A DNA stretch of 64,000 nt from Mangrovicoccus sp. GTDB lineage: Bacteria; Pseudomonadota; Alphaproteobacteria; Rhodobacterales; Rhodobacteraceae. Below are positions 1,073 through 21,002 of this stretch, piece after piece. The translations under genes and the position numbers were made by a program. The stretch covers positions 21,467 to 85,466 of the forward strand of contig JAOXSB010000073.1 of NCBI GenBank assembly GCA_025800345.1, given 5' to 3'. The stretch's first letter is position 1. The number at the start of each line of letters is the position of its first letter. Under the pieces are notes generated by a model, which was given only the letters and a program-made list of their open reading frames with translations, was not told the origin of the DNA and made no database searches.

Positions 1073-1663
1073 CTAAGTTGTTTGGAGGAAATCGACCGTC
1101 TCGTGTATGGCCTCCAGAAAGCTGAAAAGAACAAACGCAACTTGCCAAGGCTTGCGCCGCATTTTTCCTTCGAGTTCGATTTCTCCGATCATCGACCAAA
1201 TGCCCTCATCTCGAGGCTGTGATCCATTGTCATAGACGGGGCGAAAGTCATCGGTGTGGATAATTTTGTTGCAGCATTCGCGAAGTGTTTCAGGGATCTC
1301 CTCGCCTTCATAGATGGTGAGAAACCCGCCGTGTGCTGCAAGCTGTTCGGCTTTGAAGGTCTGGAACCCTCGTTCCTCTCGCAACTGGTCATCAAGCGCA
1401 CGGTACGACGCCGCTACGGTCAGTAGAATCCTCGATAGTCGCTCCTCGGCTGCGTCTTGGTGCCGTTTGACCAGCAATGGGTGCGACCACGCGGGATCTT
1501 CGCCAAATTCCTGAAGATCATCATTCCAAAAGGCCTCAACACCTCTCGTTGCGAGCGCGATCTCGAATGCTTCAAGGCACATGGATTCGATTGCGTCGCA
1601 ATCAAAGGCGAGTGGTTTTTTGAATTCGTGCCAGTACGGATTTTCGTTCGGTGATCGAGACAC
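1073..1663 (-). CDS. Hypothetical protein, third gene of the AbiE operon
   Basis: 196-aa ORF. Its GTG start shares 1 nt with the AbiEii stop, and GAGGG lies about 8 nt upstream. No recognisable domain. Confidence 0.6.
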   Translation of the reverse strand: MSRSPNENPYWHEFKKPLAFDCDAIESMCLEAFEIALATRGVEAFWNDDLQEFGEDPAWSHPLLVKRHQDAAEERLSRILLTVAASYRALDDQLREERGFQTFKAEQLAAHGGFLTIYEGEEIPETLRECCNKIIHTDDFRPVYDNGSQPRDEGIWSMIGEIELEGKMRRKPWQVAFVLFSFLEAIHETVDFLQTT

Positions 1664-2688
1664 TATTTCACCCTCTTATTGGCGCGGATTTGCAGGTCGG
1701 CCATTCTTTCCATGAGTTCATCAAAGCCGATTGCATCGGATCGCAGGAGCCCGGCATCGATCATCTTTTGGTAATCCTGATGAAGCGCCTCCAAAGGCTC
1801 GCCCTCGGGTGCCAAACAAAGTGAACCGGATACTGCTGTCGCATACTCGATCACCTTTCCTGTTTTGTCAGTCTCCCGAAAGAATTGTTGCTTGTGCTCG
1901 GCTACAGCGTTGGCGAGCCCTCGATCATCAAAGGCCTTTTGGGCAATCCCGATCTTATCCAGGCAGTCAAGATCGTACCAATGTCGCGCATAACGATCGC
2001 CACCGCGAAAGGCTCCGCGCAGGCAATACGCGTGAATGGCAGTGGCTTTTTCCCAGAATGTGCGCTCCGCAACCATGACCCTTGGGTGGGCTGTGGGCAA
2101 TATGAGCCCTTCGACCCCCTCGACTAGATCGCAGGTTACTCTGTGCCGCCCGGCAGGCTCGCCCGTTGAGCGTGCACCGAACTCCAGGAGCACCGCGGGT
2201 CGCACATATCCGTTGTTGCCGCGCACAGCTTTGTAATCCAGGTAGAGCCGGCCATTGTCCTGCCGCAGTGATGCTGGGAGCTTCTGGCTTTCAAATTGAG
2301 TGATGAACAAAGGCACTACGTCGGTCTCGATCCAAACTGACAAGCGCTCTTGCACAGCCTCTGACCACTTCCTTGCCTGGGACCGGTTTGGTGGATACGG
2401 GGTCTCGGGATTTGAGATGAGATCGGGAATAATCTGCCGAATGTCATAGGTCACATCGACGTCTTCAGAAAATCGGTCGATCGCCTTGTAGACTTTTGAT
2501 AGGGACGTTCCGCCCTTGAATACGAGATGATCGCTCCATTCGCTTTCGAAAAGAGCATTGAGCGCCCAAACGACCCAGATGTCTTTTTCGAGGAGATCAG
2601 CGGGCCGCCCCAAATTTGAGGCAGCCGCTTCGAGCGCATCGATTTTGTCTCTTTCGGACAGATCGAAATAGCTTGGGGTTCGTGTCAT
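1663..2688 (-). CDS. abiEii: AbiEii/AbiGii-family nucleotidyltransferase toxin (DUF1814, type IV TA)
   Basis: FKGGTSLSKVY and FSEDVDVTYD motifs are typical of AbiEii. I take ATG at 2688 (ATGA overlap with the upstream stop) rather than the track start at 2727. Confidence 0.85.
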   Translation of the reverse strand: MTRTPSYFDLSERDKIDALEAAASNLGRPADLLEKDIWVVWALNALFESEWSDHLVFKGGTSLSKVYKAIDRFSEDVDVTYDIRQIIPDLISNPETPYPPNRSQARKWSEAVQERLSVWIETDVVPLFITQFESQKLPASLRQDNGRLYLDYKAVRGNNGYVRPAVLLEFGARSTGEPAGRHRVTCDLVEGVEGLILPTAHPRVMVAERTFWEKATAIHAYCLRGAFRGGDRYARHWYDLDCLDKIGIAQKAFDDRGLANAVAEHKQQFFRETDKTGKVIEYATAVSGSLCLAPEGEPLEALHQDYQKMIDAGLLRSDAIGFDELMERMADLQIRANKRVK

Positions 2689-3281
2689 CACGCCACGGCT
2701 AGGGTGCTTAGTTCTTTCGCCATCCAAGTCGGCGCGCTGGCGCGTAAGGCGAGTAGCTCACGCCGCTCGTCTTCATTCAGTTGGGACTTGATACGCCCCA
2801 AAGCCTTGCCTGCTTCTGATTTGCCAAAGTAAGCCAATGCCCTGAAGGCATGCCCGGCCCGGCTGTTTGGCGCACGTAGCTGCCAACTCGGAACATGCTT
2901 CAATTCCACGCTTTGGGCCCCAAGCTTCAGATTGCGACTGGGACCGGACGTCCAGTAGATCTGGCGGGAGGGGTTTTGCGTCGACAAACCAAGTATATTG
3001 GCCGCAGAGGCACCGCTTAGCGACACACGTTCTCCTGTGGTTTTTGCGATGCTCTCAACAACAGCCTCGACAGATGGCGCACGCGCCCCGAAGCGGGTCT
3101 TTACAGGCAGGGCGAACAGACCACGTTTTACACGCATGAGCTCGCCACGCTTCACCAATCGAGACAAAGCCTGGTCAATTGCAGCGCGCTCTCCAAGGTG
3201 GAGAAGCTCTTTTGCAGAAAGGGCCGAGCCTTCCGGCAACGCTTCTGCATAGGCCTTGATCGCTTCGGATGTGGTTCTCAT
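2688..3281 (-). CDS. abiEi: AbiEi-like antitoxin / transcriptional autoregulator (DUF6088-like)
   Basis: 197 aa with an N-terminal winged-helix-like segment (IDQALSRLVKRGELMRVKRGLFALP). It is translationally coupled upstream of AbiEii. Confidence 0.75.
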   Translation of the reverse strand: MRTTSEAIKAYAEALPEGSALSAKELLHLGERAAIDQALSRLVKRGELMRVKRGLFALPVKTRFGARAPSVEAVVESIAKTTGERVSLSGASAANILGLSTQNPSRQIYWTSGPSRNLKLGAQSVELKHVPSWQLRAPNSRAGHAFRALAYFGKSEAGKALGRIKSQLNEDERRELLALRASAPTWMAKELSTLAVA

Positions 3282-3293
3282 GTCGGCTCCTTT

Positions 3294-3321
3294 GTGTCAG
3301 ATATATAGCTTGTTTTCTGAC
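3294..3321. promoter_or_regulatory. Inverted repeat TGTCAGA-N14-TCTGACA in the divergent abiEi / sigma-like promoter region (candidate operator)
   Basis: Perfect 7-bp arms read directly from the sequence, 13 nt upstream of the abiEi start. AbiEi antitoxins are known to autoregulate through inverted repeats. Confidence 0.35.
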
Positions 3322-3403
3322 AGTTTGCAAGGTAAAAGCAAAGCAGGGAACGCGCTGGAGAAACCGAACTAACGAATTGATTTACGAAAATTATGAACTT
3401 GAT

Positions 3404-4210
3404 ATGTGCATTGAACCCCTGAGAAAACGAACAGTAAGCGGAGAGCTCTATACCCGACGGGATGAGATTAATGCGTTTATCCGCTTGAGCCTTGATTGGC
3501 CCTTTGATGAGCTGCTGGACAAAGCTGCGATGCGAGATCGGCGGCACGCCGACTACGTGCCTTCCGAAGTGCTGCTCTATCACCTGAGACAAACCAAGAC
3601 CGACAATGCGGATGGCCGGTTTGTTGCACTTTACAACATTTTGTTGGATCGGATTGAAGCTGCCTGTCCCCGGCCCAATAGCCGACGCGGCGATAAGGAC
3701 GTCGAGGATTTTCGCGTCGCCGAGATCCGCGATAAAATAATAGAACGTGTGACAGAGCTCATGTTTGAGGACCGGCGGGGCTACGTAGAACAGCTTGACG
3801 CATATGAGGTGTTTTTTGACCGGGCCGTTCGCTCCGTTCGCATAGACAAATTTCGGCAGATAAGTGGTCGGGAAAATGCCACCGAATCCGTTGTGCACCA
3901 CGATGGCAGCGAGGATATCCGCGAGGAAGTCGAAGAGGCGCTTGAGCGATACAAAAAGTCAGGCCTGACAAAAGAAGAAGATTTTGATTACCGGTTTCGC
4001 ATACGTCGCGCGATTGACGCCTTACCCGAGGAAGAACGAAAGGTGATCGATTTGATGCTCGCAGAGATTCCCATTGAGACGAACAAAGACGGTGAGCCTT
4101 CAATGACCCAGCTGCTCGGCTGCGTCGAAAAAACCGTACGAAACAGGCGTGATCGTGCGTTTGAAAAGATCAGACGCGCACTCAAACTGGAGGACAATGA
4201 TGAACAATAG
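3404..4210 (+). CDS. Sigma-70 region-4-like DNA-binding protein (ECF-sigma-like C-terminus)
   Basis: The C-terminal IDALPEEERKVIDLMLAEIP...MTQLLGCVEKTVRNRRDRAFEKIRRAL looks like sigma-70 region 4. ATG 3404 is chosen to leave a divergent promoter region; the track start 3269 would overlap abiEi. Confidence 0.6.
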   Translation: MCIEPLRKRTVSGELYTRRDEINAFIRLSLDWPFDELLDKAAMRDRRHADYVPSEVLLYHLRQTKTDNADGRFVALYNILLDRIEAACPRPNSRRGDKDVEDFRVAEIRDKIIERVTELMFEDRRGYVEQLDAYEVFFDRAVRSVRIDKFRQISGRENATESVVHHDGSEDIREEVEEALERYKKSGLTKEEDFDYRFRIRRAIDALPEEERKVIDLMLAEIPIETNKDGEPSMTQLLGCVEKTVRNRRDRAFEKIRRALKLEDNDEQ

Positions 4211-4748
4211 AGAAGATGTCCTCAGCGACTTTACGATTGAGCCTGAAATGTCGCCTGCCGTGCTGAAAACCTATTTGAGCAAATACCCTGAATTTGCAGA
4301 CGAACTTCTGGATTTGTTCCACGAGCTGACAATGAGCGACATGGAAGCGGTCGAGGCAAGTCTCCCGCTTGAGACCAAGGCTATGAAGACCAGCGTCTTG
4401 CGGGTTAGGAAAGTCGAGCAAGCACTGTACGGCGCCGACGTTCGTGAACTCTCAAAATCGTTGGGTTTGCCGCGGAGTTTCCTCATGGGGTTACAAGCAA
4501 GTGTAGTCCATATCGGCTCGATGCCGATTTCGCTCCTTAATAAGCTAGCGAAACTGCTGGATGTGAGATTACAGGATGTCATCAGCGGCATGCAAATTGG
4601 CGATCAACAGGCCGTTGCGATGAAATCTGATGTGAAACCTGAAGCACAACCGGCCATCGAATTCCAAGTTTATGTAGACCAGGCTGGATTGACCGAGGAG
4701 GAGCAACGCGCATTACAAGAGTTGCTTGTAGATGATGGATCGGATTGA
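4197..4748 (+). CDS. Hypothetical protein with XRE-like HTH segment
   Basis: ATGATG at 4197 is preceded by GGAGG and overlaps the upstream stop by 14 nt. [20 protein letters not shown] resembles an XRE-type HTH. The C-terminal tail is acidic. Confidence 0.6.
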
Positions 4749-7700
4749 AGCCGTTCGTCGATGTGCCGCACATCTTCATACTGAGCGTAGGAGCAAGGGA
4801 GGCGATCCAACCCAACCCTATTCATTTGCTCTCCAAGAGGCAGAAGCTCGGGATTACGAAGTCCGCAAGCTCGCTCCTGACCATCCCCAGCTCAAAGGGG
4901 GACGGGCGCTCTTGCAGCCGAGAACCAAAGTCATCCTGCATGAGGATACGGGCAATGAGTTTTTAAATGCGTTTCTTGTTGCCCATGAGCTAGGTCATGA
5001 TGAATTTGGCGGAGGTATTGATGTCCCGCCAACCGTGAACATCGATCCGGCACGATCGTCTGATCCAGCCTCCGTTGGGGCGGATCGCGTTGTCGATTAC
5101 AGCAACCGTGCCCGCCAGGAAGTCCAAATGGATATGTTTGCGCGGGAGTTCCTCTTTCCGCGCAGTTTGGCCTGGTCCTGGCATGTCGAAGACAACCTTG
5201 GCGCAAAGGAGATTTCAGAGCGTCTTGGCGCCCCCTACGACATGGTTGCGGTGCAGCTATTTGATGCGCTTTTGTTACCGGTGTTGGAGGAAACGCCGGA
5301 TATCGCAAGCGCACCCAAACCATTGAACCGTGAGCAACAACTTGCTGCGGATCATGACGGAAAAGCGCTTCTGCTGAAGGCGGGCCCCGGGACGGGCAAA
5401 ACCCAGACGCTCGTTGGCCGCCTGTCTGTGCTACGAGACCGCGCTGTGCAGCCAGAGTCCATTCTGCTTCTGACATTTTCCAACAAGGCCGCAGGAGAGA
5501 TGACCGATCGGGCGCTGCGGGTTTGGCCGGAAGCGGCTGGTGCGGCCTGGATTGGGACCTTTCACTCATTTGGGCTTGATATCTTGCGCAGGTTTCATGA
5601 CTGCGTGGGTCTTCCCGCGGATCCCCGTATGATTGATACGACCGAAGCCATCGCCCTATTGGAGGATGAATTCCCACGGCTGCGTTTGAAGCATTTCAAC
5701 GAACTTTGGGATCCGACAGATACCCTGCGCTCTCTCCTTTCCGCCATTTCACGGGCCAAGGATGAGGTGGTCGACAACATCCATTACCGTAAGCTCGCCG
5801 AGCAAATGATGGAGGCCGCGGTCACAGAGGCGGATATCGAGGCAGCAGAAACGTGTCTGGAGATCTCAGCTGTCTATGATCTCTATGAAGAACTCAAGGC
5901 GGAACGCGGCGTGGTCGATTTTGGTGATCTGGTCGCTCGGCCGACAATGCTCGTCGAAGGTGATGCGGATGTTCGCGAGAAACTTCAACAACTCTACGAC
6001 CATGTTCTGGTGGACGAGTATCAGGACGTAAACCGGGCCAGTGTGCGATTGTTGAAGGCGCTGAAGCCTGACGGCACCAACCTCTGGGTGGTGGGAGATG
6101 CCAAACAATCGATTTACCGGTTTCGAGGTGCATCCTCGTATAACATTGATCGATTTGAGACCGAGGATTTCTCCGGAGGCAAAAGTCTCCCACTCAATAT
6201 CAATTACAGGTCATCACAAGAAATTTGTGACATATTCAAGGGCTTCGCTCAAACGCGCATGGTAGCTGCCGGTGTGGGCTTTGAGGCCACGGCGTTTAAG
6301 GGTGCCAGTGGGATTAGTCCCGTGTTTGTGGGCGTCGATGCCAAGGATCGCGAAATCGATGAAATCGCCTTCCGAATTAAAGACGCCTGCAACGAGGCCA
6401 CGTCTTTCCGTGATCAGGCCGTCATATGTAAGGGCAATGCGAGGCTGGCAGAAATCGCCGCTGGTTTAGAGGCGCGGGGTATTCCGGTCTTGTTTCTTGG
6501 GCCCCTCTTCGACAGACCAGAAATAAAGCAAGCGCTTTCCGTCCTTTCCCTTGTGGTTGACCCACGCGCCATGGGACTTGCCTGCGTCGCGTCTCTGCGC
6601 CCATTTCAAATGGCGATTGACGATGTTTCAGCTTGTGTTGATGCGGTTCGTGCCGCAAAGAACACGCTGCCCTTGGACTGGAGGCAGACGCTTTCGGGCC
6701 TAGACGACATCAGCGAGGCGGGTGAGAAGTCCCTCTCAAAGTTGATTGAGGTGTTTGGGGAGTTTGAACCAACTTCATCAGCCTGGCGCGTGGTTACAAC
6801 ACTCTATCTCGACAAGACGCGCTTGGCAGCCGAATTTGCGAAGGAAGCAAGATCAGGCAACGCAAATCCTGCGATTGCGATGTGGCAGTTTCAGAATTTT
6901 CTGAGATCAACATTGCCGAAAAAATCCGGGTACCCCATTCGTGATCTTCTCGATCACATCCGGCGCCTTGTCATTGTGTCAGATGAACGTGACTTACGCG
7001 ACCTGCCTGAAGCGGCACAAAGCCTCGACGCTGTCCGGATCATGACCATTCACGGCAGCAAGGGACTTGAGTTCAAAGTCCTTCATTTGCCGGCATTAAC
7101 CAGCCGATCCATTCCGCTGTCAGCCAAGCAAAACCGCGGACTTGCGCCTCCTGACGGCATGATCGAGGGTGCGCCCTTTAAGGGCTGTGACGCGCTCACG
7201 TCTGGGCATGACGAGGAGCAGGAATGTTTGTTTTTCGTCGCTTTATCCAGAGCAGAGGAGCGGTTGATACTTTATGCCTACAGCAAGAGATCGAAGTTCG
7301 TGGATGACATATCTGGTCATGTTCTAAGCGAAGCTTCACAATCGGCATCGACTGAATTCGCGATATCAGCGAACGGAATAAAGTTGGAGGTTGATGGCAT
7401 CGCTCGCATATCGCCTTCCCAGCTTGCGGCCTATGAAAAGTGCCCGCGGCGGTTTTTCTTTGCACATGTGTTGCAAGTCGGCGGTCGTCGCGCAGAGTCG
7501 CCCCTTATGCGTATGCACAACGCAGTCCAGGGCGTTGTCGATGAGCTGACGTCTCGTTTGAACGATGAACCAAGCGATGCAGAACTCGCAGCCATTATGG
7601 ATAAGGCGTGGGTGGAAAATGGTCCGGTGGATCATGGATACGCTGCCGAGTACCGTCAAATCTCAGACGAGCTGCTGAGTTTTTTCCGATTGGTCCGAAC

Positions 7701-8130
7701 AGGTGAAAAACGGCGCGCACCAACCCCAATTTCCTTGAAGTTCGGTGAGGCAGAGATTGTCGTGTCTGCACATGAGGAAGTCGATGCTGGGTCTGGCCGG
7801 GTGCTGCGGCGTATCAAAACAGGACGGAAGACCACGAACGCTGTCGAGTCCTTAGATGCGGCTGCCTTTCAGCTCGCCGCTGAAGGCCACGGCCAGGCAG
7901 AGTTCGTGTTTCTGACCGGCGCGACGCAGGACCGATTGACCATGAGCAGCACGAAACTGGGGAACCGGAAAACAAAGATCGCTCAAGCTGCAATTGCGAT
8001 CCTCGAAGGGCATTTCCCTCCAAAACGCACCGATCGCTGCGCCCGCTGCGCATATTTCTTCATCTGCAATGAACCGCCCTCAGGCACGCTCCGAAAAAAA
8101 ATCGGATCAGGCTTACCGGATTCCTCCTGA
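4732..8130 (+). CDS. ImmA/IrrE (M78) metallopeptidase + UvrD/PcrA-type SF1 helicase + Cas4/AddB-type PD-(D/E)XK nuclease fusion
   Basis: HEXXH ([10 protein letters not shown]) near the N-terminus. Helicase motifs [43 protein letters not shown] and ALSRA. C-terminal CPRRFF...[10 protein letters not shown] (C...CX2CX5C) is typical of iron-sulfur RecB-family nucleases. Confidence 0.85.
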
Positions 8131-8199
8131 CGCCGCGATTGTCCTTGTGAAGGCGCAGACATGAGGTTTACGTCCGCCAACTTCTTAAGGACGAACACA

Positions 8200-9051
8200 A
8201 TGAAATCGCAAGGAAATGATCCTCGCTTCCCGGTCTTCATCGCTGATGAGGGCCTCAACTACAAAAAACACGTTTTCGATGACCCAAAGGTTCTCGGTCG
8301 CCAGTTGATCGAAGCTGCCGACGGGCATCCGGTTGATGAACATGTGGCAATCGCCATTTTGCCAAACGGGGACTTCGAAGACATTCGCCTCGACGAAAGC
8401 TATGATCTGCGCGGGCGCGGTGCCGAGAAAGTGCTGGTTGCGCGGACGGACCGTGTCTTCAAGTTTAAGATCGACGACAAGGATCTTGAATGGCCGCGCG
8501 CGTGCATCAGCGGATTTGTACTGCGTAAGCTTGCGGACCTGCCGGAAAACTACAATCTCTGGCAGGAAATTCCAGGCCAGCAGGACCGCAAGATTGCTGA
8601 CTGCGATCTGATCAATCTCAATGCCAAGGGTGTGGAGCGGTTCATCTCGCTCATCGATCAGACGACGGAGGGGGACACCCTTCCGTCGTTCGATCAGACT
8701 TTTCTGGTGGACCATGGCTATCAGTTCGACGTCGTTCAGGAAGGCCGTGAAACCGGCATCATCCTGAAGTCGCTCGACCTGCCGGAAGGCAAATTCAATG
8801 TCGAAGCCGCGGACATCCTTGTACTCCTGCCAAACGGGTATCCCGACTGCGCGCCTGATATGTTCTATGCCTCTCCGCATTTGACGTTGGCGAGCGGTCA
8901 GGTCCCGAAAGCCTGCACGGTCCAGCACACCTATGCAGGTCGTGTTTGGCAGCGCTGGTCGCGCCACAACAACGCCTGGCGGCCCGGGATTGATGGTTTG
9001 CGCACGATGGTGGCGCGGATCAAAACTGCGCTCGCCGAGGCGCGGCCATGA
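8200..9051 (+). CDS. Tandem ubiquitin-like (Multi_ubiq) domains fused to a prokaryotic E2-like domain (family E type)
   Basis: Two beta-grasp-like repeats (VFIADEGLNYKKHVF... and FKFKIDDKDLEWPRACISGFVLRKLA...). These are followed by LPNGYPDCAPDMFY...GRVWQRWSRHNNAWRPGIDGL, which I recognise as Prok-E2_E-like. ATG 8200 has an AAGGA RBS. Confidence 0.8.
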   Translation: MKSQGNDPRFPVFIADEGLNYKKHVFDDPKVLGRQLIEAADGHPVDEHVAIAILPNGDFEDIRLDESYDLRGRGAEKVLVARTDRVFKFKIDDKDLEWPRACISGFVLRKLADLPENYNLWQEIPGQQDRKIADCDLINLNAKGVERFISLIDQTTEGDTLPSFDQTFLVDHGYQFDVVQEGRETGIILKSLDLPEGKFNVEAADILVLLPNGYPDCAPDMFYASPHLTLASGQVPKACTVQHTYAGRVWQRWSRHNNAWRPGIDGLRTMVARIKTALAEARP

Positions 9052-10442
9052 AGGGCCCGCTGGATATTGTTCTGGCTGGTCCGCACGAAGCCGGTATCCG
9101 GTCTCTGCTCGCGCAGGGTGCCGGTGCCGAGCGTTCCGCCTACATGCTTTTTGGGACAGCGGCGATTGAGAAAGACCCCTGGACGGACTCTGCTCGCACA
9201 CGACTCATTTCGCATGCATTCATCGACCTCGATGATGACGACGTGGTCTCAGCCTCCGAGCGCCACGTGACGTGGCAAACTGATAGTTTCATGCGATTGC
9301 TTGGTCGCGCCAAGTCCGGTGGCCTGGTTCCCGCCATCGTTCATACCCATCCAAAGGGCCGGGCCCGTTTTTCCAAACAAGATGACCGGAACGAGGCGGA
9401 ACTTGCGCGGACCGCCCTGTTCAAGGGTGCACCCGGACTAATTAGCGTTTTGATTGCGAGCGACGGCGAGATTGCCGTGAGGATTTGGCGCTCGGCTGAA
9501 AAGCCAACGGCCATCAGGCGTATTCTTCACACAGGACCGCGTCTGGCCCTCACCGCAGAGAACGGTAGCGAGCTGGGCTTTCTGGACCGTCAAACCCGAC
9601 TTTTCGGCGATCAGGCCAATGCAATGATCACGCAGTTTCGCTGCGGCATTTCCGGAGGGGGCGCTACGGGAAGCGCAGTGTTGCCTTTGCTGATGCGTCT
9701 TGGCGTGCGCGAGGCGGTCCTCTGCGAAAAGGACCATGCTGAAGATACAAATCTCAACAGGCTCCATGGCGCACGACAGGAGGATGTCGACGCTCATCGA
9801 GCCAAGGCTGACATTCATGCTCGGACAGTTACGGAGGCCGATCTTGGCATGTCATTGGTAACCATCGATGCCTGGGCCGGTGAGCCATGCACATGGGACG
9901 CATTGAGGTCTTGTGATGTGATTTTCTGTTGCACGGATGATCACGCCGGTCGACTCTTTCTGAACCGCTTCGCCCGTTTCTATGGCATTGCGGTCATCGA
10001 TGTCGGTCTCGCAATGCAGCGTCGCGATGCTCAGTCGTTCGATCTGTTTGCCCGGGTTACCACCCTTGTGCCCGGACACCCCTGTCTGCTCTGCGGCGGG
10101 TTCATCAACCCGCAACGCGCGCGCGAGGAAGCCCTGCAGCGGACTGATCCGGAGGCTTATGAAAAACTGAAAGAGGAAGCCTATCTGCTTGGTGAGGGTG
10201 ACCCCTCCCCTGCCGTTGTGACCTTCACGACAGAGGCGGGTGCCATGGCGGTCAATGAATGGCTGACCGGTATCACCGGATTTGCCGGAGCAAACGGAAT
10301 GGCACCGACGCGGATGCGCCGGTTTCACGCGCGCGATGAGCGTTTTCCTGAGATTTCGCCGCGCCCGGGTTGCCCGTGTTGTGATGCAACTGAAACGCTG
10401 GGCCGGGGAGACATGACACCCTTTCTGGACATGGTGACGTGA
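9048..10442 (+). CDS. JAB/JAMM deubiquitinase-like peptidase fused to E1-like (ThiF/MoeB) adenylyltransferase
   Basis: Intact JAMM motif HTHPKGRARFSKQD (HxHx7Sx2D). Rossmann GGGATGS, NLNR, CTDD. Paired CLLC and CPCC zinc site as in ThiF/MoeB. ATGA overlap with the upstream gene. Confidence 0.85.
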   Translation: MKGPLDIVLAGPHEAGIRSLLAQGAGAERSAYMLFGTAAIEKDPWTDSARTRLISHAFIDLDDDDVVSASERHVTWQTDSFMRLLGRAKSGGLVPAIVHTHPKGRARFSKQDDRNEAELARTALFKGAPGLISVLIASDGEIAVRIWRSAEKPTAIRRILHTGPRLALTAENGSELGFLDRQTRLFGDQANAMITQFRCGISGGGATGSAVLPLLMRLGVREAVLCEKDHAEDTNLNRLHGARQEDVDAHRAKADIHARTVTEADLGMSLVTIDAWAGEPCTWDALRSCDVIFCCTDDHAGRLFLNRFARFYGIAVIDVGLAMQRRDAQSFDLFARVTTLVPGHPCLLCGGFINPQRAREEALQRTDPEAYEKLKEEAYLLGEGDPSPAVVTFTTEAGAMAVNEWLTGITGFAGANGMAPTRMRRFHARDERFPEISPRPGCPCCDATETLGRGDMTPFLDMVT

Positions 10443-10443
10443 G

Positions 10444-10815
10444 ATGAAAAAGCTATTGGCAAACCTGCTTCGGCAGCTTGGAGTGCTGAGGTATGACTAT
10501 CTGGTGAGCAGGCAGGACGCCTTTCCGCAAACGCCTGAATCAGAACCGGACGAGTTAATCCTGGTCGAGAGCGGCGCGATCCAAAAATGGGCCTGTCTCT
10601 CCTGCCCTGGCGGCTGCGGCGAGAGGATCGCTTTGTCTCTCAACCCAGATCGCCGACCTCGCTGGAGCATTAGGACAGATTTCTGGCAGAGACCCACACT
10701 CCACCCGTCGGTGCATCAGCAAAATGACTGTGGATGCCACTTCTGGGTCAAAAAGGGTCAGGTTCATTGGTGCAAGGGTGGGCGGCCGCAATCACCGAAC
10801 AAGAGAATGGAATGA
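10444..10815 (+). CDS. DUF6527-like small Cys-rich protein
   Basis: 123 aa with CLSCPGGCGE...TLHPSV...CGCHFWVKKGQVHW, matching my memory of the DUF6527 signature (xPS...C.SH.W...G.v.W). It starts 1 nt after the E1 stop. Confidence 0.7.
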   Translation: MKKLLANLLRQLGVLRYDYLVSRQDAFPQTPESEPDELILVESGAIQKWACLSCPGGCGERIALSLNPDRRPRWSIRTDFWQRPTLHPSVHQQNDCGCHFWVKKGQVHWCKGGRPQSPNKRME

Positions 10816-10888
10816 CACAAATGGTTTGCGAGCGAATAAAGCGATCGGGATATCGCGGCACACGGCCCGCACAGGTGGGGGCGTATCG

Positions 10889-11590
10889 ATGCGTTTCGCT
10901 TTAGACGAGGGCAAACGAGTTGAAGCCACCCCAGGCGCCAAAGGCAAATGCCCAGGATGTGGTGCAGAACTCATCGCACGATGCGGAACCAAGAAAGTTT
11001 GGCACTGGGCCCATAAAGGTCAGCGGCATTGCGACCACTGGTGGGAAAACGAAACGCAGTGGCATCGGGACTGGAAGAACCACTTCCCGTCTGATTGGCA
11101 GGAGATCCCAGCTCGAGATGAAGCGGGTGAACTTCATATCGCAGACATCAAGACGCCAAAGGGTTTGGTTGTCGAGTTTCAGCACTCTTACATCAAGCCA
11201 ACAGAGGCCTGTAAGAGAACAGAGTTTCACAACCCGATGTTTTGGGTTGTCGATGGAACTAGGCGAAAGACGGATCCCAAGCAGTTTCAAACAGCACTGA
11301 AAGACGGCTTAGAACATCCAACGAAGGATGGGCTTGTTCAACAGATTTGGGTCTATGATTCACGGCTGATCAAAGAATGGGTTCACGTCGGAGTAATCGT
11401 TGCATTCGATTTTGGCAAAGACACAGTTTGGATCCTCCGTCGAATTAAGAACGATTGGGTATATGGATTTGAGTACCCGAAACTCAAACTGGTCGAGCAT
11501 ATCTCTGAAAGCAGGCCCATCCCCGATGTGTTATTTGGCCAGCCTGAACGTCGGACAGCAAGATACCGTCGCCGCCGGGCCAGATTTTGA
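10889..11590 (+). CDS. CoiA-like (competence protein CoiA family) putative nuclease
   Basis: N-terminal CPGCGAELIARCGTKKVWHWAH zinc-ribbon plus HCDHWWENETQWHRDWK and ADIKT...VVEFQHS core resemble the CoiA family. ATG 10889 is chosen over track start 10724, which overlaps the previous gene. Confidence 0.7.
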   Translation: MRFALDEGKRVEATPGAKGKCPGCGAELIARCGTKKVWHWAHKGQRHCDHWWENETQWHRDWKNHFPSDWQEIPARDEAGELHIADIKTPKGLVVEFQHSYIKPTEACKRTEFHNPMFWVVDGTRRKTDPKQFQTALKDGLEHPTKDGLVQQIWVYDSRLIKEWVHVGVIVAFDFGKDTVWILRRIKNDWVYGFEYPKLKLVEHISESRPIPDVLFGQPERRTARYRRRRARF

Positions 11591-11791: not shown

Positions 11792-11820
11792 GCCCCGGAA
11801 GGAATTCGGGGCCGTTTTCT
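11792..11820 (+). terminator. Hairpin GCCCCG-N9-CGGGGC followed by T-run; likely terminator of the island operon
   Basis: Read directly from the sequence: gccccggaaggaattcggggccgttttct. Confidence 0.5.
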
Positions 11821-11899: not shown

Positions 11900-14170
11900 T
11901 TAGCCGCTACATTTGGAATAGCCGCAACTGCCGCAGGTCATGCAGCCTTCAAGCATCCGCATCTCATAGGCCCCGCAACTGTCACAGGCTTTGCCCCGTG
12001 GGCGGGCCGTATCAATCATGTCATGGGGATCAGATTTCAGCCCTTGGCCTTCGCCATCGATAAAGCCGATGGCCACCATATGGCGCTCCACCACGCCGCC
12101 GATCGCCGCCAGGATCGAGGGCACATATTTGCCTTCCATCCAGGCCCCGCCGCGCGGGTCGAACACGGCTTTGAGCTCTTCCACCACGAAAGACACATCG
12201 CCGCCGCGCCGGAACACCGCCGAAATCATCCGGGTCAGCGCCACGGTCCAGGCGTAATGCTCCATATTCTTGGAGTTGATGAAAACCTCAAAGGGCCGGC
12301 GGCGCCCGTTCACCTCAATATCGTTGAGAGTGATATAGATCGCGTGCTCGCTTTCGGGCCAACGCAGCTTATAGGTATGCCCTTCGAGAGCACGGGGCCG
12401 ATCCAGCGGCTCGGTCAGATGCACCACATCGCCGCTCACCACCGGGGCGGGGGCGGCGGTTTCCTTGGGCTTTTCTTCGGCAACGCTCAGCACCGAGCCG
12501 GTCACATCATTGGGCCGGTAGGTGGTGCAGCCTTTGCAGCCCTGATCCCAAGCGGCCAGATAAACATCTTTGAAATCCTCAAAGCTGATATCTTCGGGGC
12601 AGTTGATAGTTTTGGAGATGCTGGAATCGATCCAGCGCTGCGCGGCGGCCTGCATGCGCACATGATCCATAGGTGCCAGGGTCTGCGCATTGACGAAATG
12701 ATCGGGCAGCGGCGCATCGCCCTTGAGCTCGCGCCACATCTGCACCGCGTAATCGGTCACTTCTTCTTCGGTGCGGGTGCCATCTTTTTGCAGCACTTTG
12801 CGGGTGTAGCTATAGGCAAAGACCGGCTCGATCCCGCTGGACACATTGCCCGCGTAAAGGCTGATGGTGCCAGTGGGCGCGATCGAGGTCAGCAGCGCGT
12901 TGCGAATGCCATGCTCGCTCACCGCCGCGCGCACATCCTCGCCCATGCCTTGCATAGTGCCGCTGGCCAAATAAGCGTCGCGGTCAAACAGGGGGAAGGG
13001 GCCTTTTTCCGCCGCCAGATCGACCGAGGCCAGATAAGCGGCGCGGGCAAGCGCCCCCAACCATTGATCGGTCAGACGCGCCGCTTCCTCGGATCCATAA
13101 CGCTCCCCTACCATCAGCAAAGCATCGGCCAGCCCGGTCACCCCAAGGCCGATCCGGCGCTTGGCCGCGGCTTCTTGCGCCTGCGCTTCCAAGGGGAATT
13201 GGCTGGCATCCACCACATTATCCATCATGCGCACGGCGAGGCGCACCAGATCATCCAACGCCGCCTCATCAAGCCCTGCATCGGGGCCAAACGGGTCTTT
13301 GACCAGCCGCGCCAGATTGATCGAGCCCAGCAAACAGGCCCCATAGGGCGGCAATGGCTGCTCGCCGCAAGGATTGGTGGCGGCGATGCTTTCGCAATAG
13401 GCCAGGTTATTGGCGGTGTTGATCCGGTCGATGAAAATCACCCCGGGCTCGGCGAAATCATAAGTGGATTGCATGATCGCATCCCACAGCGCCCGGGCCT
13501 GCACCGTGCGATAGACCGTCCCGTCAAACACCAGATCCCAAGCCCGGTCCGCTTTCACCGCTTCCATGAACGGATCGGTGATCAGCACCGAAAGATTGAA
13601 CATGCGCAGCCGCGCCGGATCGGATTTGGCCGAGATAAACGCCTCGATATCAGGGTGGTCACAGCGCATGGTGGCCATCATCGCGCCCCGGCGCGAGCCC
13701 GCGGACATGATGGTCCGGCACATCGCATCCCAAACATCCATAAAGCTCAGCGGGCCAGACGCATCCGCCGCCACCCCATGTACTGGCGCGCCTTTGGGCC
13801 GGATGGTGGAGAAATCATAGCCGATCCCGCCCCCTTGCTGCATGGTCAGGGCGGCTTCTTTGAGCATATCGAAAATCCCCGACATCGTGTCGGGAATCGT
13901 GCCCATAACAAAACAGTTAAACAGCGTTACCGCCCGGCCAGTGCCCGCACCGGCGGTGATCCGCCCCGCTGGCAGGAATTTGAAATCCTCAAGCGCCTCA
14001 TAAAATTTCGGCTCCCAAGCGGCGGGATCTTTTTCCTGCTCGGCCAAGGCCTTGGCAATGCGCTGCCAACTGTCTTCGATACTATGATCTACCGGGGCAC
14101 CGTCGGCGTCCTTAAGGCGGTATTTCATATCCCAAATCTGCTCGGCAATGGGCGCAGAGAATCGGCTCAT
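11900..14170 (-). CDS. nrdJ: Vitamin B12-dependent (class II) ribonucleotide reductase
   Basis: Strong family resemblance throughout (TNPCGEQPL, SISKTIN). C-terminal Cys-rich tail CDSCG...CMTCGSCGYSKC. ATG 14170 (MSRFSAPIAEQIW) is preferred to the upstream track start. Confidence 0.9.
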   Translation of the reverse strand: MSRFSAPIAEQIWDMKYRLKDADGAPVDHSIEDSWQRIAKALAEQEKDPAAWEPKFYEALEDFKFLPAGRITAGAGTGRAVTLFNCFVMGTIPDTMSGIFDMLKEAALTMQQGGGIGYDFSTIRPKGAPVHGVAADASGPLSFMDVWDAMCRTIMSAGSRRGAMMATMRCDHPDIEAFISAKSDPARLRMFNLSVLITDPFMEAVKADRAWDLVFDGTVYRTVQARALWDAIMQSTYDFAEPGVIFIDRINTANNLAYCESIAATNPCGEQPLPPYGACLLGSINLARLVKDPFGPDAGLDEAALDDLVRLAVRMMDNVVDASQFPLEAQAQEAAAKRRIGLGVTGLADALLMVGERYGSEEAARLTDQWLGALARAAYLASVDLAAEKGPFPLFDRDAYLASGTMQGMGEDVRAAVSEHGIRNALLTSIAPTGTISLYAGNVSSGIEPVFAYSYTRKVLQKDGTRTEEEVTDYAVQMWRELKGDAPLPDHFVNAQTLAPMDHVRMQAAAQRWIDSSISKTINCPEDISFEDFKDVYLAAWDQGCKGCTTYRPNDVTGSVLSVAEEKPKETAAPAPVVSGDVVHLTEPLDRPRALEGHTYKLRWPESEHAIYITLNDIEVNGRRRPFEVFINSKNMEHYAWTVALTRMISAVFRRGGDVSFVVEELKAVFDPRGGAWMEGKYVPSILAAIGGVVERHMVAIGFIDGEGQGLKSDPHDMIDTARPRGKACDSCGAYEMRMLEGCMTCGSCGYSKCSG

Positions 14171-14279
14171 GGTGGGCGGTCCTGTCAGAATCGTCGGATG
14201 CGGTGAAAGAGGCCCCACCCTATTGCAACCCGCTATAGCTAGTCTACCATAAAGCGCAGACAACAAGGACTAGAGAAAA

Positions 14280-20630: not shown

Positions 20631-21002
20631 GCGCGCGGATGGCTGGATGGCCGCGGCCTTTGGGTCGAGGAAAGTCCGGACTCCAAGAAGCATCGGTGCC
20701 GGGTAACGCCCGGCCGGGGAAACCCGAGGGAAAGCGCCACAGAAAACAGACCGCCCCGCTTGCGGGGTAAGGGTGAAACGGTGGGGTAAGAGCCCACCGC
20801 GGGACGGGTAACCGGACCGGCATGGCAAGCCCCACCGGGAGCAATGCCGAATAGGGATCCTGCGCGGGCTTGCCCGCAGGCCGCTTCAGCCCAGGGATCC
20901 GGGTTGGCAGCTAGACCCCGTCAGCAATGGCGGGGCCAGAGGAATGGTCATCCATGGGGCCCTGCCCCAGGACAGAATCCGGCTTACAGGCCATCCGCGC
21001 GC
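20631..21002 (+). ncRNA. rnpB: RNase P RNA, bacterial type A
   Basis: Conserved GAGGAAAGTCCGG, ACAGAAAACA, GGGTAAGGGTGAAA, GGTAAGAGCCCACC and ACAGAATCCGGCTTA blocks. P1 pairing joins 20631-20643 with 20989-21002. Confidence 0.85.

What the first reader, a model, noticed from the sequence alone, without database searches (positions are those of the whole stretch)
3404..11590. Seven tightly packed co-directional genes join an ImmA-UvrD-nuclease fusion, a ubiquitin-like conjugation module and a CoiA-type nuclease: candidate composite, undescribed defence system
Seen in the sequence. The genes run sigma-r4-like, HTH, ImmA-UvrD-nuclease, Ubl-E2, JAB-E1, DUF6527-like, CoiA-like. The spacings between successive genes are:
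- 14-nt overlap at 4197-4210;
- 17-nt overlap at 4732-4748;
- 69-nt gap;
- ATGA overlap at 9048-9051;
- 1-nt spacer at 10443;
- 73-nt gap.

The next hairpin terminator is at 11792-11820. This packing argues for one transcription unit.

Established knowledge:
- Bacterial E1/E2/Ubl/JAB operons act in antiphage immunity (Bil, and CBASS Cap2/Cap3).
- HTH plus ImmA-type protease pairs (CapH/CapP) switch defence operons on after DNA damage.
- UvrD-like helicases and RecB-family nucleases are recurrent defence components.

Inference. The helicase-nuclease/ImmA fusion may sense phage or damaged DNA and cleave the adjacent HTH protein. That would license the Ubl-conjugation module, with CoiA as a nuclease effector. 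I know of no described system with this full composition.
Basis: partly seen in the sequence, partly recalled or inferred. Interest (0 to 1): 0.9.

Follow-up and report, generated by a model that had tools for sequence, protein, structure and literature searches.

The report
Bacterial ubiquitin-like operon with helicase-protease switch
A known bacterial ubiquitin-like conjugation operon (Type I Bub) is here preceded by a conserved three-gene module (sigma-like protein, small helical protein, protease-helicase fusion) with its own promoter-like DNA motif; I found no description of this module, and it suggests how this pathway of unknown function is switched on.

Summary
All seven genes, their overlaps and gaps, and the terminator are as stated, and Pfam supports most domain calls.

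- Genes 4-6 are a Type I Bub operon (bubAB-bubCD-bubE). It is biochemically characterised, but its biological role is unknown.
- Genes 1-3 are a sigma-70-like protein, a small all-helical protein, and an M78 protease–UvrD helicase–4-Cys PD-(D/E)XK-like fusion. [quoted passage not shown]
- The Bub papers I read mention no helicase or sigma module.

New here: a bipartite motif, TTACCGG-N16-CGATT, occurs exactly twice per locus. One copy sits inside gene 1, where synonymous sites are frozen. The other sits just before bubA. The two copies co-vary within genomes, as expected of promoters read by the gene-1 sigma-like protein. A covarying hairpin pairs the bubA ribosome-binding site.

The CoiA-like gene is in only 3 loci and is not core. 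The nuclease motif of gene 3 looks degenerate.

Verdict: a new variant of a known kind. The mechanism is inferred, not shown.

The parts
3404..4210 (+). g1: sigma-70-family-like (ECF-like) protein, 268 aa
   Evidence: Sequence hits are weak: Pfam Sigma70_r4_2, NCBIfam ECF sigma models over residues 125-263, PHROG sigma/transcription regulator. The AF2 model has pLDDT 75.7, and its top Foldseek PDB hits are all sigma factors at E 0.02-0.1. It lies upstream of g2-g3 in every locus with enough flank. The family has 182/594/985 50%-identity representatives at E<=1e-30/1e-10/1e-3, and the top 150 are mostly ~260-280 aa.
3988..4015 (+). Site A: TTACCGG-N16-CGATT motif embedded in the g1 ORF, 182 nt upstream of the g2 ATG (putative internal promoter)
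   Evidence: Exact match. It is present at the same position in 25 sequences (exact in 21 distinct loci). Codons Y196 TAC, R197 CGG, A203 GCG and I204 ATT are kept in 19-20 of 20-21 loci, whereas other conserved residues use their commonest codon in only 29-76% of loci.
4197..4748 (+). g2: small all-alpha protein with a possible Cro/C1-like HTH core and an invariant K143/P148 motif (consensus SYKADxKP; MKSDVKP in the window protein); candidate protease substrate (anti-sigma or repressor)
   Evidence: No Pfam family, and only marginal HTH_26/HTH_31 hits. The AF2 model has pLDDT 78.8; the only local fold match is a Cro protein (TM 0.58 over 62 aa, not significant). The alignment of 19 homologues is.
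4732..8130 (+). g3: M78/ImmA-like Zn protease (Pfam residues 41-176 = 4852-5259), UvrD/PcrA-type SF1 helicase (residues 198-850 = 5323-7281), and 4-Cys PD-(D/E)XK-like domain (residues 892-1113 = 7405-8070)
   Evidence: Pfam domains. The PDB profile search puts PcrA/UvrD/Rep first, at E 1e-79. HExxH, Walker A, DEYQD and Cys904/1103/1106/1112 are conserved in 20 homologues. The nuclease motif III reads RRI[K/R/W]TG instead of DYKTG. The C-terminal Cys cluster aligns weakly (E 1.5) to Cas4.
8113..8140 (+). Site B: second TTACCGG-N16-CGATT motif, overlapping the last codons of g3, 59 nt upstream of the bubAB ATG (putative bub promoter)
   Evidence: It is present before bubA in Type I and Type II loci. 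It co-varies with site A within genomes: L013 has TTTCCGG at both sites and L014 has TTACCGA at both. These two sites are the only exact matches in the 64-kb window.
8141..8199 (+). bubAB leader: two-tier hairpin whose outer stem pairs CCUU(GUG) with the Shine-Dalgarno region (CUU)AAGG
   Evidence: Window MFE is -19.2 kcal/mol, z = -2.75. The same architecture is the MFE fold in 13 of 16 loci (z -2.6 to -5.4), with different, complementary outer-stem sequences.
8200..9051 (+). g4 = BubAB: two ubiquitin-like beta-grasp domains fused to a serine-type E2
   Evidence: Pfam Multi_ubiq + Prok-E2_E. Gly158 (TTEG) sits at the Ubl/E2 junction, and S254-x-H256 matches the Bub E2 Ser/His motif (motif from bioRxiv 10.1101/2024.11.21.623953).
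9048..10442 (+). g5 = BubCD: JAB/JAMM peptidase fused to E1 adenylation domain
   Evidence: Pfam Prok-JAB + ThiF. E28, H99, H101, S109, D112 and Tyr379 are invariant in 10 homologues.
10444..10815 (+). g6 = BubE: DUF6527 serine protease with C4 zinc site
   Evidence: Pfam DUF6527 at E 1e-24. S89, C96 and H99 have the same +7/+10 spacing as Citrobacter S92, C99 and H102; C51, C54 and C58 are also present.
10889..11590 (+). g7: CoiA-like protein; an accessory or variable neighbour, not a core part
   Evidence: CoiA_N at E 3e-8; CoiA_nuc only at E 0.05, below cut-off. Homologues follow BubE only in L001 and L089, and are absent in L090, L091, L086, L082 and all others.
11792..11820 (+). Intrinsic-terminator-like hairpin plus T-run after g7
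   Evidence: 8-bp stem with 6 GC pairs, then CGTTTTCTCA; sequence.
1663..3281 (-). AbiEi/AbiEii pair divergent from g1 (recurrent neighbour, not shown to be part of the system)
   Evidence: Pfam AbiEii and DUF6088/AbiEi_4. An AbiE pair directly upstream of g1 is seen in window, L089-L091, L001, L003, L004, L008, L012 and L093, in three families and three arrangements.

Best explanation
The locus is a Type I Bub (bacterial ubiquitination-like) operon, bubAB-bubCD-bubE. It is preceded by a dedicated three-gene control and sensor module for which I found no published description.

Shown here:
- Six genes form one conserved unit.
- All Bub catalytic residues are intact.
- g3 carries an intact HExxH protease motif and intact SF1 helicase motifs.
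- A bipartite DNA motif with -35/-10-like geometry occurs twice per locus, under nucleotide-level selection.

Inferred mechanism:
1. g1 is a sigma-70-family factor that reads the two TTACCGG-N16-CGATT promoters. One drives g2-g3 and the other drives the bub genes.
2. g2 holds g1 or these promoters inactive.
3. The UvrD-type motor of g3 and its Fe-S-type, probably non-catalytic, nuclease-like domain engage DNA ends or single-stranded DNA from damage or an invading element.
4. This activates the N-terminal M78 protease of g3, which cleaves g2. The precedent is ssDNA-activated CapP cleaving CapH.
5. Freed g1 then switches on Bub. Bub conjugates the processed ubiquitin-like BubA to targets through Tyr and Ser oxyester intermediates, and BubE reverses the conjugation.
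6. The leader hairpin probably blocks bubAB translation from read-through transcripts.

The CoiA-like gene is an optional passenger.
For: - Synteny: g1-g2-g3-Ubl-E2/E1-BubE is kept in 27 of 28 evaluable loci, with both Bub types.
- Domains and motifs.
- g1 as sigma-like: plus source names.
- Motif count: 47 exact matches in 28 listed loci. By my estimate fewer than one is expected by chance. All but one stray hit (L076) are on the + strand at the two syntenic sites.
- The window has only 2 exact matches in 64 kb.
- The spacer is fixed at 16 nt.
- Synonymous sites are frozen at site A.
- Sites A and B co-vary within a genome.
- L017, the one locus without Bub, lacks the motif.
- Leader hairpin.
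- Precedents: CapH+CapP, CapW and CapK+CapS occupy the same upstream position at Bub operons, and CapP is activated by ssDNA.
Against: - No experiment and no transcript data support the model.
- The sigma assignment for g1 rests on sub-threshold sequence hits and Foldseek E-values of 0.02-0.1 with low TM.
- g2 has no significant family or fold match, so neither its anti-sigma/repressor role nor its cleavage is shown.
- The M78 domain has no PDB sequence match and lacks the GAF-like sensor domain of CapP.
- The motif could instead be a binding site for g2.
- If transcription starts 6-7 nt after CGATTG, part of the anti-SD arm is not transcribed, so the role of the hairpin is ambiguous.
- Bub itself has no demonstrated biological function.
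Confidence: 0.5

Rival explanations
1. g3 is not a regulator but the working partner, effector or target of the pathway. In this reading the helicase/Fe-S domain protein acts on phage or damaged DNA, and Bub conjugates its ubiquitin-like protein to g3 or to proteins at the DNA ends it marks. g1 and g2 merely regulate the whole set.
For: - g3 is large and fully conserved, with all helicase motifs intact. That is more machinery than a sensor seems to need.
- DNA-end-processing genes recur next to the cluster: SbcCD-like in L012, L020, L090, L091 and L093; RmuC in L005; AddAB-like in L004; CoiA-like in window, L001 and L089.
- UvrD-like helicases are effectors in other defence systems, as the PADLOC GajB/DRT hits show.
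Against: - The catalytic (D/E)xK of the nuclease domain is lost across the family, so g3 probably cannot degrade DNA itself.
- The invariant HExxH protease domain next to a small partner protein fits the ImmA/CapP regulatory paradigm.
- Bub operons work with quite different upstream modules (CapW, CapH+CapP, CapK+CapS). This argues that the upstream slot is regulatory.
Confidence: 0.2
2. The TTACCGG-N16-CGATT motif is an operator bound by the g2 HTH-like protein, as CapH binds its operator, rather than a promoter read by g1. In this reading g1 is an accessory transcription factor or adaptor.
For: - g2 has a possible Cro/C1-like core.
- Repressor cleavage by ImmA-type proteases is the established paradigm.
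- ACCGGT within the first element is palindromic in many loci.
Against: - The motif is asymmetric and bipartite, with a rigid 16-nt spacer and a CG-containing downstream element. This is typical of -35/-10 promoters of alternative sigma factors, which is established knowledge rather than something tested here.
- It lies 45-59 nt upstream of the bubA start codon.
- The top structural matches of g1 are sigma factors.
Confidence: 0.2
3. One reading: all seven genes form one composite defence system, in which the CoiA-like protein is the nuclease effector licensed by the Ubl module.
For: - g7 follows BubE co-directionally in three loci: the window (73-nt gap), L001 and L089.
- No terminator-like site lies on the + strand between g6 and g7.
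- The slot after BubE often holds nuclease-type genes.
Against: - g7 homologues are absent from 24 of 27 Bub-linked loci. These include relatives whose g3 is 71-79% identical (L090, L091, L086).
- The gene in the same slot in Halomonas is unrelated.
- No copy of the system's motif lies upstream of g7.
- The CoiA nuclease domain scores below the Pfam cut-off.
Confidence: 0.08
4. Chance juxtaposition: independent systems (a regulator pair, a helicase-nuclease and a Bub operon) that merely sit together in a defence island.
For: Islands do pile up unrelated systems. AbiE, BrxR, Wadjet and SbcCD-like genes are all nearby in related loci.
Against: - The same order and spacing are kept in 27 of 28 loci across phyla and across two Bub types, while the flanks differ completely.
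- A shared cis-motif links g1 to the bub promoter region.
Confidence: 0.02

Closest known systems
Type I Bub (6E.1 / DUF6527) operon, bubAB-bubCD-bubE (Ye, Gong, Chambers, Corbett; bioRxiv 10.1101/2024.11.21.623953; first noted as operon type 6e by Iyer, Burroughs and Aravind 2006, PMC1779556)
   Same: Genes 4-6 have the defining architecture: a Multi_ubiq-E2 fusion, a JAB-E1 fusion and DUF6527. The published catalytic residues are present: Gly at the Ubl end, E2 Ser-x-His, JAMM residues, E1 crossover-loop Tyr, and the BubE Ser/His dyad plus C4.
   Different: The operon is preceded by a sigma-like/g2/protease-helicase module rather than by CapW, CapH+CapP, CapK+CapS or nothing. That paper's Table S1 lists the Phaeobacter inhibens Bub operon without any regulator. 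In a P. inhibens genome sampled here, the Bub operon has g1-g3 directly upstream (L086). I could not confirm that it is the same strain as the table entry.
CapH+CapP (and the related ImmR/ImmA and DdrO/IrrE-PprI pairs): a DNA-damage-activated M78 protease that cleaves an HTH repressor
   Same: An M78/ImmA-type HExxH protease is encoded next to a small helical protein, immediately upstream of an immune or stress operon. The likely signal is linked to DNA damage or ssDNA.
   Different: - The protease lacks the GAF-like sensor domain of CapP and is fused in cis to a UvrD-type helicase and a 4-Cys nuclease-like domain.
- The partner g2 is not a recognisable XRE-family HTH.
- A third gene, the sigma-like g1, and an asymmetric promoter-like motif are added.
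ECF sigma / anti-sigma modules controlled by regulated proteolysis
   Same: A small sigma-70-family-like protein is followed by a partner gene. A cognate bipartite motif with a 16-nt spacer lies in front of the regulated genes and in front of the partner gene, giving an autoregulatory layout.
   Different: - g1 is about 70 aa longer than typical ECF sigmas and scores below family thresholds.
- The autoregulatory copy lies inside the sigma gene rather than upstream of it.
- The putative protease is a cytoplasmic M78-helicase fusion, not a membrane site-1/site-2 protease.
AddAB / RecBCD / AdnAB and Cas4-type helicase-nuclease proteins
   Same: An SF1 UvrD-like motor is followed by a PD-(D/E)XK-fold domain. 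That domain has the N-terminal Cys plus C-terminal CxxCx5C pattern of the AddB/Cas4 iron-sulfur cluster.
   Different: - The helicase core is closest to PcrA/UvrD/Rep, not AddA/RecB.
- The nuclease motif III DYK is replaced by RI[K/R/W].
- The protein is a single polypeptide with an N-terminal protease.

Membership tests
Type I Bub operon | Ubl (1-3 beta-grasp domains) fused to a Prok-E2_E domain, with a conserved Gly at the Ubl C-terminus | tested here: met
   Pfam Multi_ubiq (2 stretches) + Prok-E2_E at E 7e-43. Gly158 in TTEG lies just before the E2 domain, which starts at residue 161.
Type I Bub operon | E2 active site with Ser and His instead of Cys (S333/H335 in Citrobacter) | tested here: met
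   S254-R-H256 in WQRWSRHNNAW near the C-terminus of g4. The match is by sequence reading, not by alignment to the Citrobacter protein.
Type I Bub operon | JAB/JAMM peptidase fused to a ThiF-type E1 with an invariant crossover-loop Tyr | tested here: met
   Pfam Prok-JAB + ThiF. E28, H99, H101, S109, D112 and Y379 are invariant in 10 homologues.
Type I Bub operon | DUF6527 protein (BubE) with a Ser/His dyad and a C4 zinc site | tested here: met
   Pfam DUF6527 at E 1e-24. S89, C96 and H99 have the published spacing, and C51, C54 and C58 are present.
Type I Bub operon | Ubl conjugation through oxyester intermediates | not testable with these tools
   This needs biochemistry.
CapH+CapP regulator pair | M78 Zn-metallopeptidase with HExxH | tested here: met
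   Pfam Peptidase_M78 at 29 bits (cut-off 22). HE[LIV]GH is invariant in 20 homologues.
CapH+CapP regulator pair | CapP C-terminal GAF-like domain with a cysteine-switch loop that binds ssDNA | tested here: not met
   The M78 domain (residues 41-176) is followed directly by the UvrD helicase from residue 196, which leaves no room for a GAF-like domain. The feature definition is from PMC13228613.
CapH+CapP regulator pair | Partner is an XRE-type HTH repressor cleaved by the protease | tested here: inconclusive
   g2 gives only HTH_26/HTH_31 hits at E 0.03-0.04 in 2-3 of 19 homologues, plus a non-significant local Cro match. Cleavage is not testable here.
Sigma-70 family (ECF-like) factor, for g1 | Recognisable sigma region 2 and region 4 domains | tested here: inconclusive
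   Sigma70_r4_2 scores 18.3 bits, below the 25.7 cut-off. NCBIfam ECF models match residues 125-263 at E 3e-5 to 2e-3, far below their cut-offs. The top Foldseek hits are all sigma factors, but at E 0.02-0.1 and TM about 0.2.
Sigma-70 family (ECF-like) factor, for g1 | Cognate bipartite -35/-10 promoter upstream of the regulated genes | tested here: met
   TTACCGG-N16-CGATT occurs at two syntenic sites in nearly all loci, with co-variation between the sites. That g1 reads the motif is an inference.
RecB/AddB/Cas4-family nuclease, for the g3 C-terminal domain | Catalytic D ... (D/E)xK residues | tested here: not met
   Where AddB-like, AddA-like and RecB proteins from the same loci have DYKTG or DWKS, g3 homologues have RRI[K/R/W]TG. 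The window clade also has AHEE where others have PD(D/E)V. This rests on sequence reading. hhalign to one AddB-like domain was uninformative.
RecB/AddB/Cas4-family nuclease, for the g3 C-terminal domain | Four-cysteine iron-sulfur cluster pattern | tested here: met
   C904, C1103, C1106 and C1112 are invariant. The C-terminal CxxCx5C aligns weakly (E 1.5) to the Cas4 part of a Cas4-Cas1 fusion. There is also a weak TIGR00372 cas4 hit.
CoiA family, for g7 | CoiA_N zinc-ribbon domain plus CoiA nuclease-like domain | tested here: inconclusive
   CoiA_N scores 33.5 bits, above the 26.3 cut-off. CoiA_nuc scores 14.3 bits, below the 20.3 cut-off, but lies in the correct order.
Gabija (GajA+GajB) | GajB UvrD-like helicase paired with a GajA OLD-family nuclease | tested here: not met
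   PADLOC GajB models hit only the generic helicase core of g3. No GajA hit occurs among the seven proteins.

The most novel reading that the evidence does not exclude
The g1-g2-g3 module is a self-contained switch of a new type. A CapP/ImmA-type protease is fused in cis to the DNA motor (UvrD helicase plus Fe-S end-binding domain) that finds or generates its activating DNA signal. It acts through a dedicated sigma factor with its own promoters rather than by simple repressor release. It is the specific control module that ties Bub ubiquitin-like conjugation to DNA-end or ssDNA events, so it points to the still-unknown biological role of Bub.
Probability: 0.35. Interest if true: 0.75.

Novelty: new variant of a known kind. 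Interest (0 to 1): 0.62.

Why it matters
Bub operons are a biochemically remarkable ubiquitin-like pathway that works through oxyester intermediates. Their biological function is still open: the authors report no phage protection so far.

This locus type adds a fourth kind of upstream module, one I did not find described, and it is the most informative so far. It couples a protease of the DNA-damage-sensing ImmA/CapP type to a helicase and an Fe-S DNA-binding domain, and it supplies a putative dedicated sigma factor with an easily recognised promoter motif.

That makes several questions directly testable:
- What signal turns Bub on (DNA ends, ssDNA, or a particular mobile element).
- Whether a sigma/anti-sigma/protease cascade controls an immune-type operon.
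- What Bub conjugates to once it is induced.

The motif also gives a simple sequence tag for finding such systems and any extra regulon members.

Tried and rejected
- **Metagenome survey.** The same profile on viral contigs found only one distant locus. The reverse fraction therefore remains unknown.
- **PDB sequence searches.** Single-sequence and profile searches with the M78 domain and the nuclease-like domain gave nothing significant.
- **hhalign.** Comparing the nuclease-like domain with one AddB-like domain was uninformative.
- **g2 fold.** Foldseek with the g2 model gave no significant match.
- **Leader consensus fold.** Folding each leader separately was informative.
- **g7 look-up.** An exact-sequence look-up of g7 found no record.
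- **Defence and phage libraries.** PADLOC gave only generic GajB/DRT helicase hits and weak E1-E2 hits. PHROGs added little.
- **Rfam.** No known RNA family lies in the cluster.
- **Literature.** Full-text searches for a described helicase or sigma link to Bub/6E operons found none. One broad search returned mostly irrelevant hits.
- **Gabija.** Considered and rejected, because no GajA is present.
- **g3 as an active AddA/RecB-type nuclease.** Considered and rejected, because the catalytic motif is lost.

Full report
**Observation.** The hairpin terminator at 11792-11820 is also there. A public contig with identical sequence carries independent gene calls that agree for g1 and g3 and differ by one codon for g2.

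Pfam confirms most domain calls:
- g3 carries Peptidase_M78, UvrD-helicase, UvrD_C and PDDEXK_1.
- g4 carries Multi_ubiq and Prok-E2_E.
- g5 carries Prok-JAB and ThiF.
- g6 carries DUF6527.
- g7 carries CoiA_N.

The g1 'sigma r4' call is below threshold. g2 has no family, only marginal HTH_26. The closest named g1 homologue (98% identity) comes from a Phaeobacter strain, so the window is probably from a Rhodobacteraceae genome.

**What is already known.** Genes 4-6 are a Type I Bub operon, formerly called 6E.1 or DUF6527. BubAB is a Ubl-E2 fusion, BubCD is a JAB-E1 fusion, and BubE is a DUF6527 serine protease (bioRxiv 10.1101/2024.11.21.623953; first noted as type 6e in PMC1779556).

The published catalytic features are all present here:
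- Gly158 at the Ubl end and S254-x-H256 in the E2 domain.
- E28, H99, H101, S109 and D112 in the JAMM domain, and invariant Tyr379 in the E1 domain.
- S89 and H99 plus the cysteines of the zinc site in BubE.

So the core is intact, but it is not new. The same group reports that Bub operons are often preceded by DNA-damage-responsive regulators: CapW, CapH+CapP (31%) or CapK+CapS. They also report that Bub has not yet been shown to protect against phage.

**Linkage of genes 1-3 to Bub.** g3 belongs to a well-conserved family of about 1130 aa. I fetched loci around its homologues from species-representative genomes and from assemblies. Among 28 evaluable loci, counting the window, 27 have the same order: g1-like, g2-like, g3, then a multi-ubiquitin gene, E2/E1 genes and a DUF6527 gene.

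The hosts include Rhodobacteraceae, Sphingomonas, Mesorhizobium, Halomonas, Aeromonas, Pseudomonas, Kluyvera and Acidobacteria. The flanking genes differ completely between them.

The module is joined to both Bub types:
- Type I, as in the window.
- Type II, with BubA plus a DUF6791-ThiF BubBD. Pfam verified this in L004, L006 and L015, and precomputed Pfam annotation shows it in L094.

The one exception, L017, has a 34%-identical g3 and no Bub genes.

The two Bub papers and the CapP and CapK/CapS papers contain no mention of a helicase, a nuclease or a sigma module next to Bub. Table S1 of the Bub paper lists a Phaeobacter inhibens operon with no regulator, yet a P. inhibens genome has g1-g3 directly upstream of its Bub operon (L086). 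I could not confirm that it is the same strain.

**The CoiA-like gene.** Homologues of g7 follow BubE only in L001 and L089. They are absent in L090, L091 and L086, whose g3 proteins are 71-79% identical to the window's, and in all other loci. The gene in the same slot in Halomonas is unrelated. g7 is therefore an accessory or passenger gene.

The slot after BubE is, however, often filled by DNA-processing genes. These are SbcCD-like pairs in L093, L012 and L020, RmuC in L005, and an AddAB-like pair in L004. An optional accessory role cannot be excluded.

**Nature of genes 1-3.**
- *g1.* It gives weak hits to ECF sigma models over residues 125-263 and to phage sigma/regulator families. Some homologues are named sigma factor by their sources. 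An AlphaFold2 model (pLDDT 75.7) finds only sigma factors among its best PDB matches (SigD, sigma-A, SigW, SigH, sigma-28), at modest E-values of 0.02-0.1. The family is sizeable, with 594 representatives at E<=1e-10, and most of the best 150 are about 260-280 aa.
- *g2.* It is all-helical, with a conserved N-terminal helical region, a possible Cro-like core and an invariant K143/P148 motif with consensus SYKADxKP.
- *g3.* HExxH, Walker A and DEYQD are invariant, and the helicase core is closest to PcrA/UvrD/Rep. The C-terminal domain keeps the four cysteines typical of AddB/Cas4 iron-sulfur clusters. Where AddB-like, AddA-like and RecB proteins have DYK or DWK, it has RRI[K/R/W]. By sequence reading it is probably not an active nuclease.

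**A new cis-element.** I compared the g3-bubA junctions across loci and found a bipartite motif, TTACCGG-N16-CGATT(G/A). In the window clade it overlaps the last codons of g3. A pattern search over all fetched loci found 47 exact matches in 28 loci. All but one stray hit are on the + strand, at two syntenic positions:
- Site B lies before bubA (window 8113-8140).
- Site A lies inside the g1 ORF (window 3988-4015), 182 nt before g2.

These two are the only exact matches in the 64-kb window.

Three results point to selection at the DNA level and recognition by one co-evolving factor:
- At site A the four codons that carry the motif are fixed at the nucleotide level in 19-20 of 20-21 loci. Every other conserved residue of g1 uses its commonest codon in only 29-76% of loci.
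- Deviations are mirrored within a genome. L013 has TTTCCGG at both sites, and L014 has TTACCGA at both.
- L017, which has no Bub, has no motif.

The asymmetry, the rigid 16-nt spacer and the position 45-59 nt upstream of bubA fit an alternative-sigma promoter. The obvious candidate reader is g1, but this is an inference. The tight packing therefore probably hides at least two internal promoters rather than one simple transcription unit.

**Leader.** Between site B and the bubA start codon, 13 of 16 leaders fold into the same two-tier hairpin, with z-scores of -2.6 to -5.4. The outer stem pairs the 5' end with the Shine-Dalgarno region, and its sequence differs between loci while staying complementary: CCUUGUG/CACAAGG, CCUUAG/CUAAGG, CCUUCUG/CAGAAGG.

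Suppose transcription from site B starts 6-7 nt after the -10-like element. Then part of the anti-SD arm would be missing from that transcript but present on read-through RNA. The hairpin might therefore restrict BubAB translation to promoter-B transcripts. This is speculative.

**Most likely mechanism** (inferred, confidence about 0.5).
1. g2 keeps g1, or the two promoters, silent.
2. The motor and Fe-S domain of g3 engage DNA ends or ssDNA.
3. This activates the fused M78 protease, by analogy with ssDNA-activated CapP and IrrE/PprI, and the protease cleaves g2.
4. g1 then drives g2-g3 and the bub genes.
5. Bub conjugation follows.

The last is effectively excluded.

**Context.** The cluster sits in mobile or defence-island settings:
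- Integrases, Trb/VirB conjugation genes, ParB and ArdC.
- BrxR and JetA.
- An AbiEi/AbiEii pair directly upstream of g1 in 10 loci, in three families and three arrangements.

This fits a defence or stress role but does not prove one.

**Verdict.** It is a new variant of a known kind: a Bub operon with a sigma-like/protease-helicase control module for which I found no prior description, together with its cognate promoter motif. It is interesting mainly because it offers a concrete handle on how, and in response to what, the enigmatic Bub pathway is switched on.

Noticed in passing
window 1663-3281 (- strand); L001 6832-8597; L003 5080-6980; L004 6664-8570; L008 6661-8564; L012 6370-8052; L089-L091; L093 3456-5217: An AbiEi/AbiEii toxin-antitoxin pair lies immediately upstream of g1 in 10 loci. 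The pairs belong to three different AbiE families and occur in three arrangements. In one arrangement, in L004 (and, by ORF listing, L003), the AbiEii stop overlaps the g1 start. This may reflect shared regulation or simply island stabilisation.
   Followed up: partly
window 3295-3322 (AbiEi-g1 intergenic region): A perfect inverted repeat, TGTCAGA-N14-TCTGACA, lies in the 122-nt divergent promoter region between abiEi and g1. It is conserved in L089, L090 and L091. It may be an AbiEi operator, which could also affect g1 transcription.
   Followed up: no
L093 13212-17038; L012 16551-21274; L020 17004-21702; L090 15341-19542; L091 767-5572: An SbcCD-like pair (Metallophos nuclease plus AAA_23/AAA_27/SMC-like ATPase) recurs next to the cluster. 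In three loci it lies directly after bubE on the same strand, in the slot that the CoiA-like gene occupies in the window. RmuC (L005) and an AddAB-like pair (L004) occupy the same slot.
   Followed up: partly
L002 16615-18672: In the Acidobacteria locus, a protein with two AAA domains (Cdc48/FtsH-like ATPase) lies downstream of bubE. This recalls ubiquitin-dependent unfoldases, but it is a single case.
   Followed up: no
L017 8373-13246: This is the only g3 homologue without Bub (34% identity, Acidobacteria). It keeps two ORFs of g1 and g2 size upstream, but VWA and ABC-transporter genes follow it and the TTACCGG-N16-CGATT motif is absent. It may be a related module attached to different cargo.
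   Followed up: partly
L088 8001-13295: This g3 homologue has 1764 aa. An internal duplication repeats the helicase C-terminal part and the nuclease-like domain. Site A was not found in this locus, and site B has a 15-nt spacer.
   Followed up: no
L015 9694-13409: g3 appears split across two frames (a likely frameshift or pseudogene), and site B is degenerate (TCACCGG). This is consistent with decay of the system in that genome.
   Followed up: no
window 8161-8163: An in-frame ATG 39 nt upstream of the accepted bubAB start lies inside the leader hairpin. It is missing in L001 and L086, so 8200 is the likely true start.
   Followed up: yes
window 1073-1663 (- strand): A 196-aa ORF of unknown function accompanies the AbiE pair in the window, L089 and L090. 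It matches a phage protein family of unknown function (phrog_18838, E 5e-7).
   Followed up: no
window 20635-21002 (+ strand): A bacterial RNase P RNA class A gene (Rfam RF00010, 296 bits) lies here. With the class II ribonucleotide reductase-like ORF at 11900-14266 (- strand), it marks the start of ordinary chromosomal genes right after the cluster. G+C rises from about 0.52-0.58 to above 0.60 there.
   Followed up: no
L082-L085 17152-23372 (- strand): In Halomonas the cluster abuts recD and recB genes on the opposite strand. These are probably the housekeeping RecBCD genes. I note this only because DNA-end-processing genes recur around these clusters.
   Followed up: no
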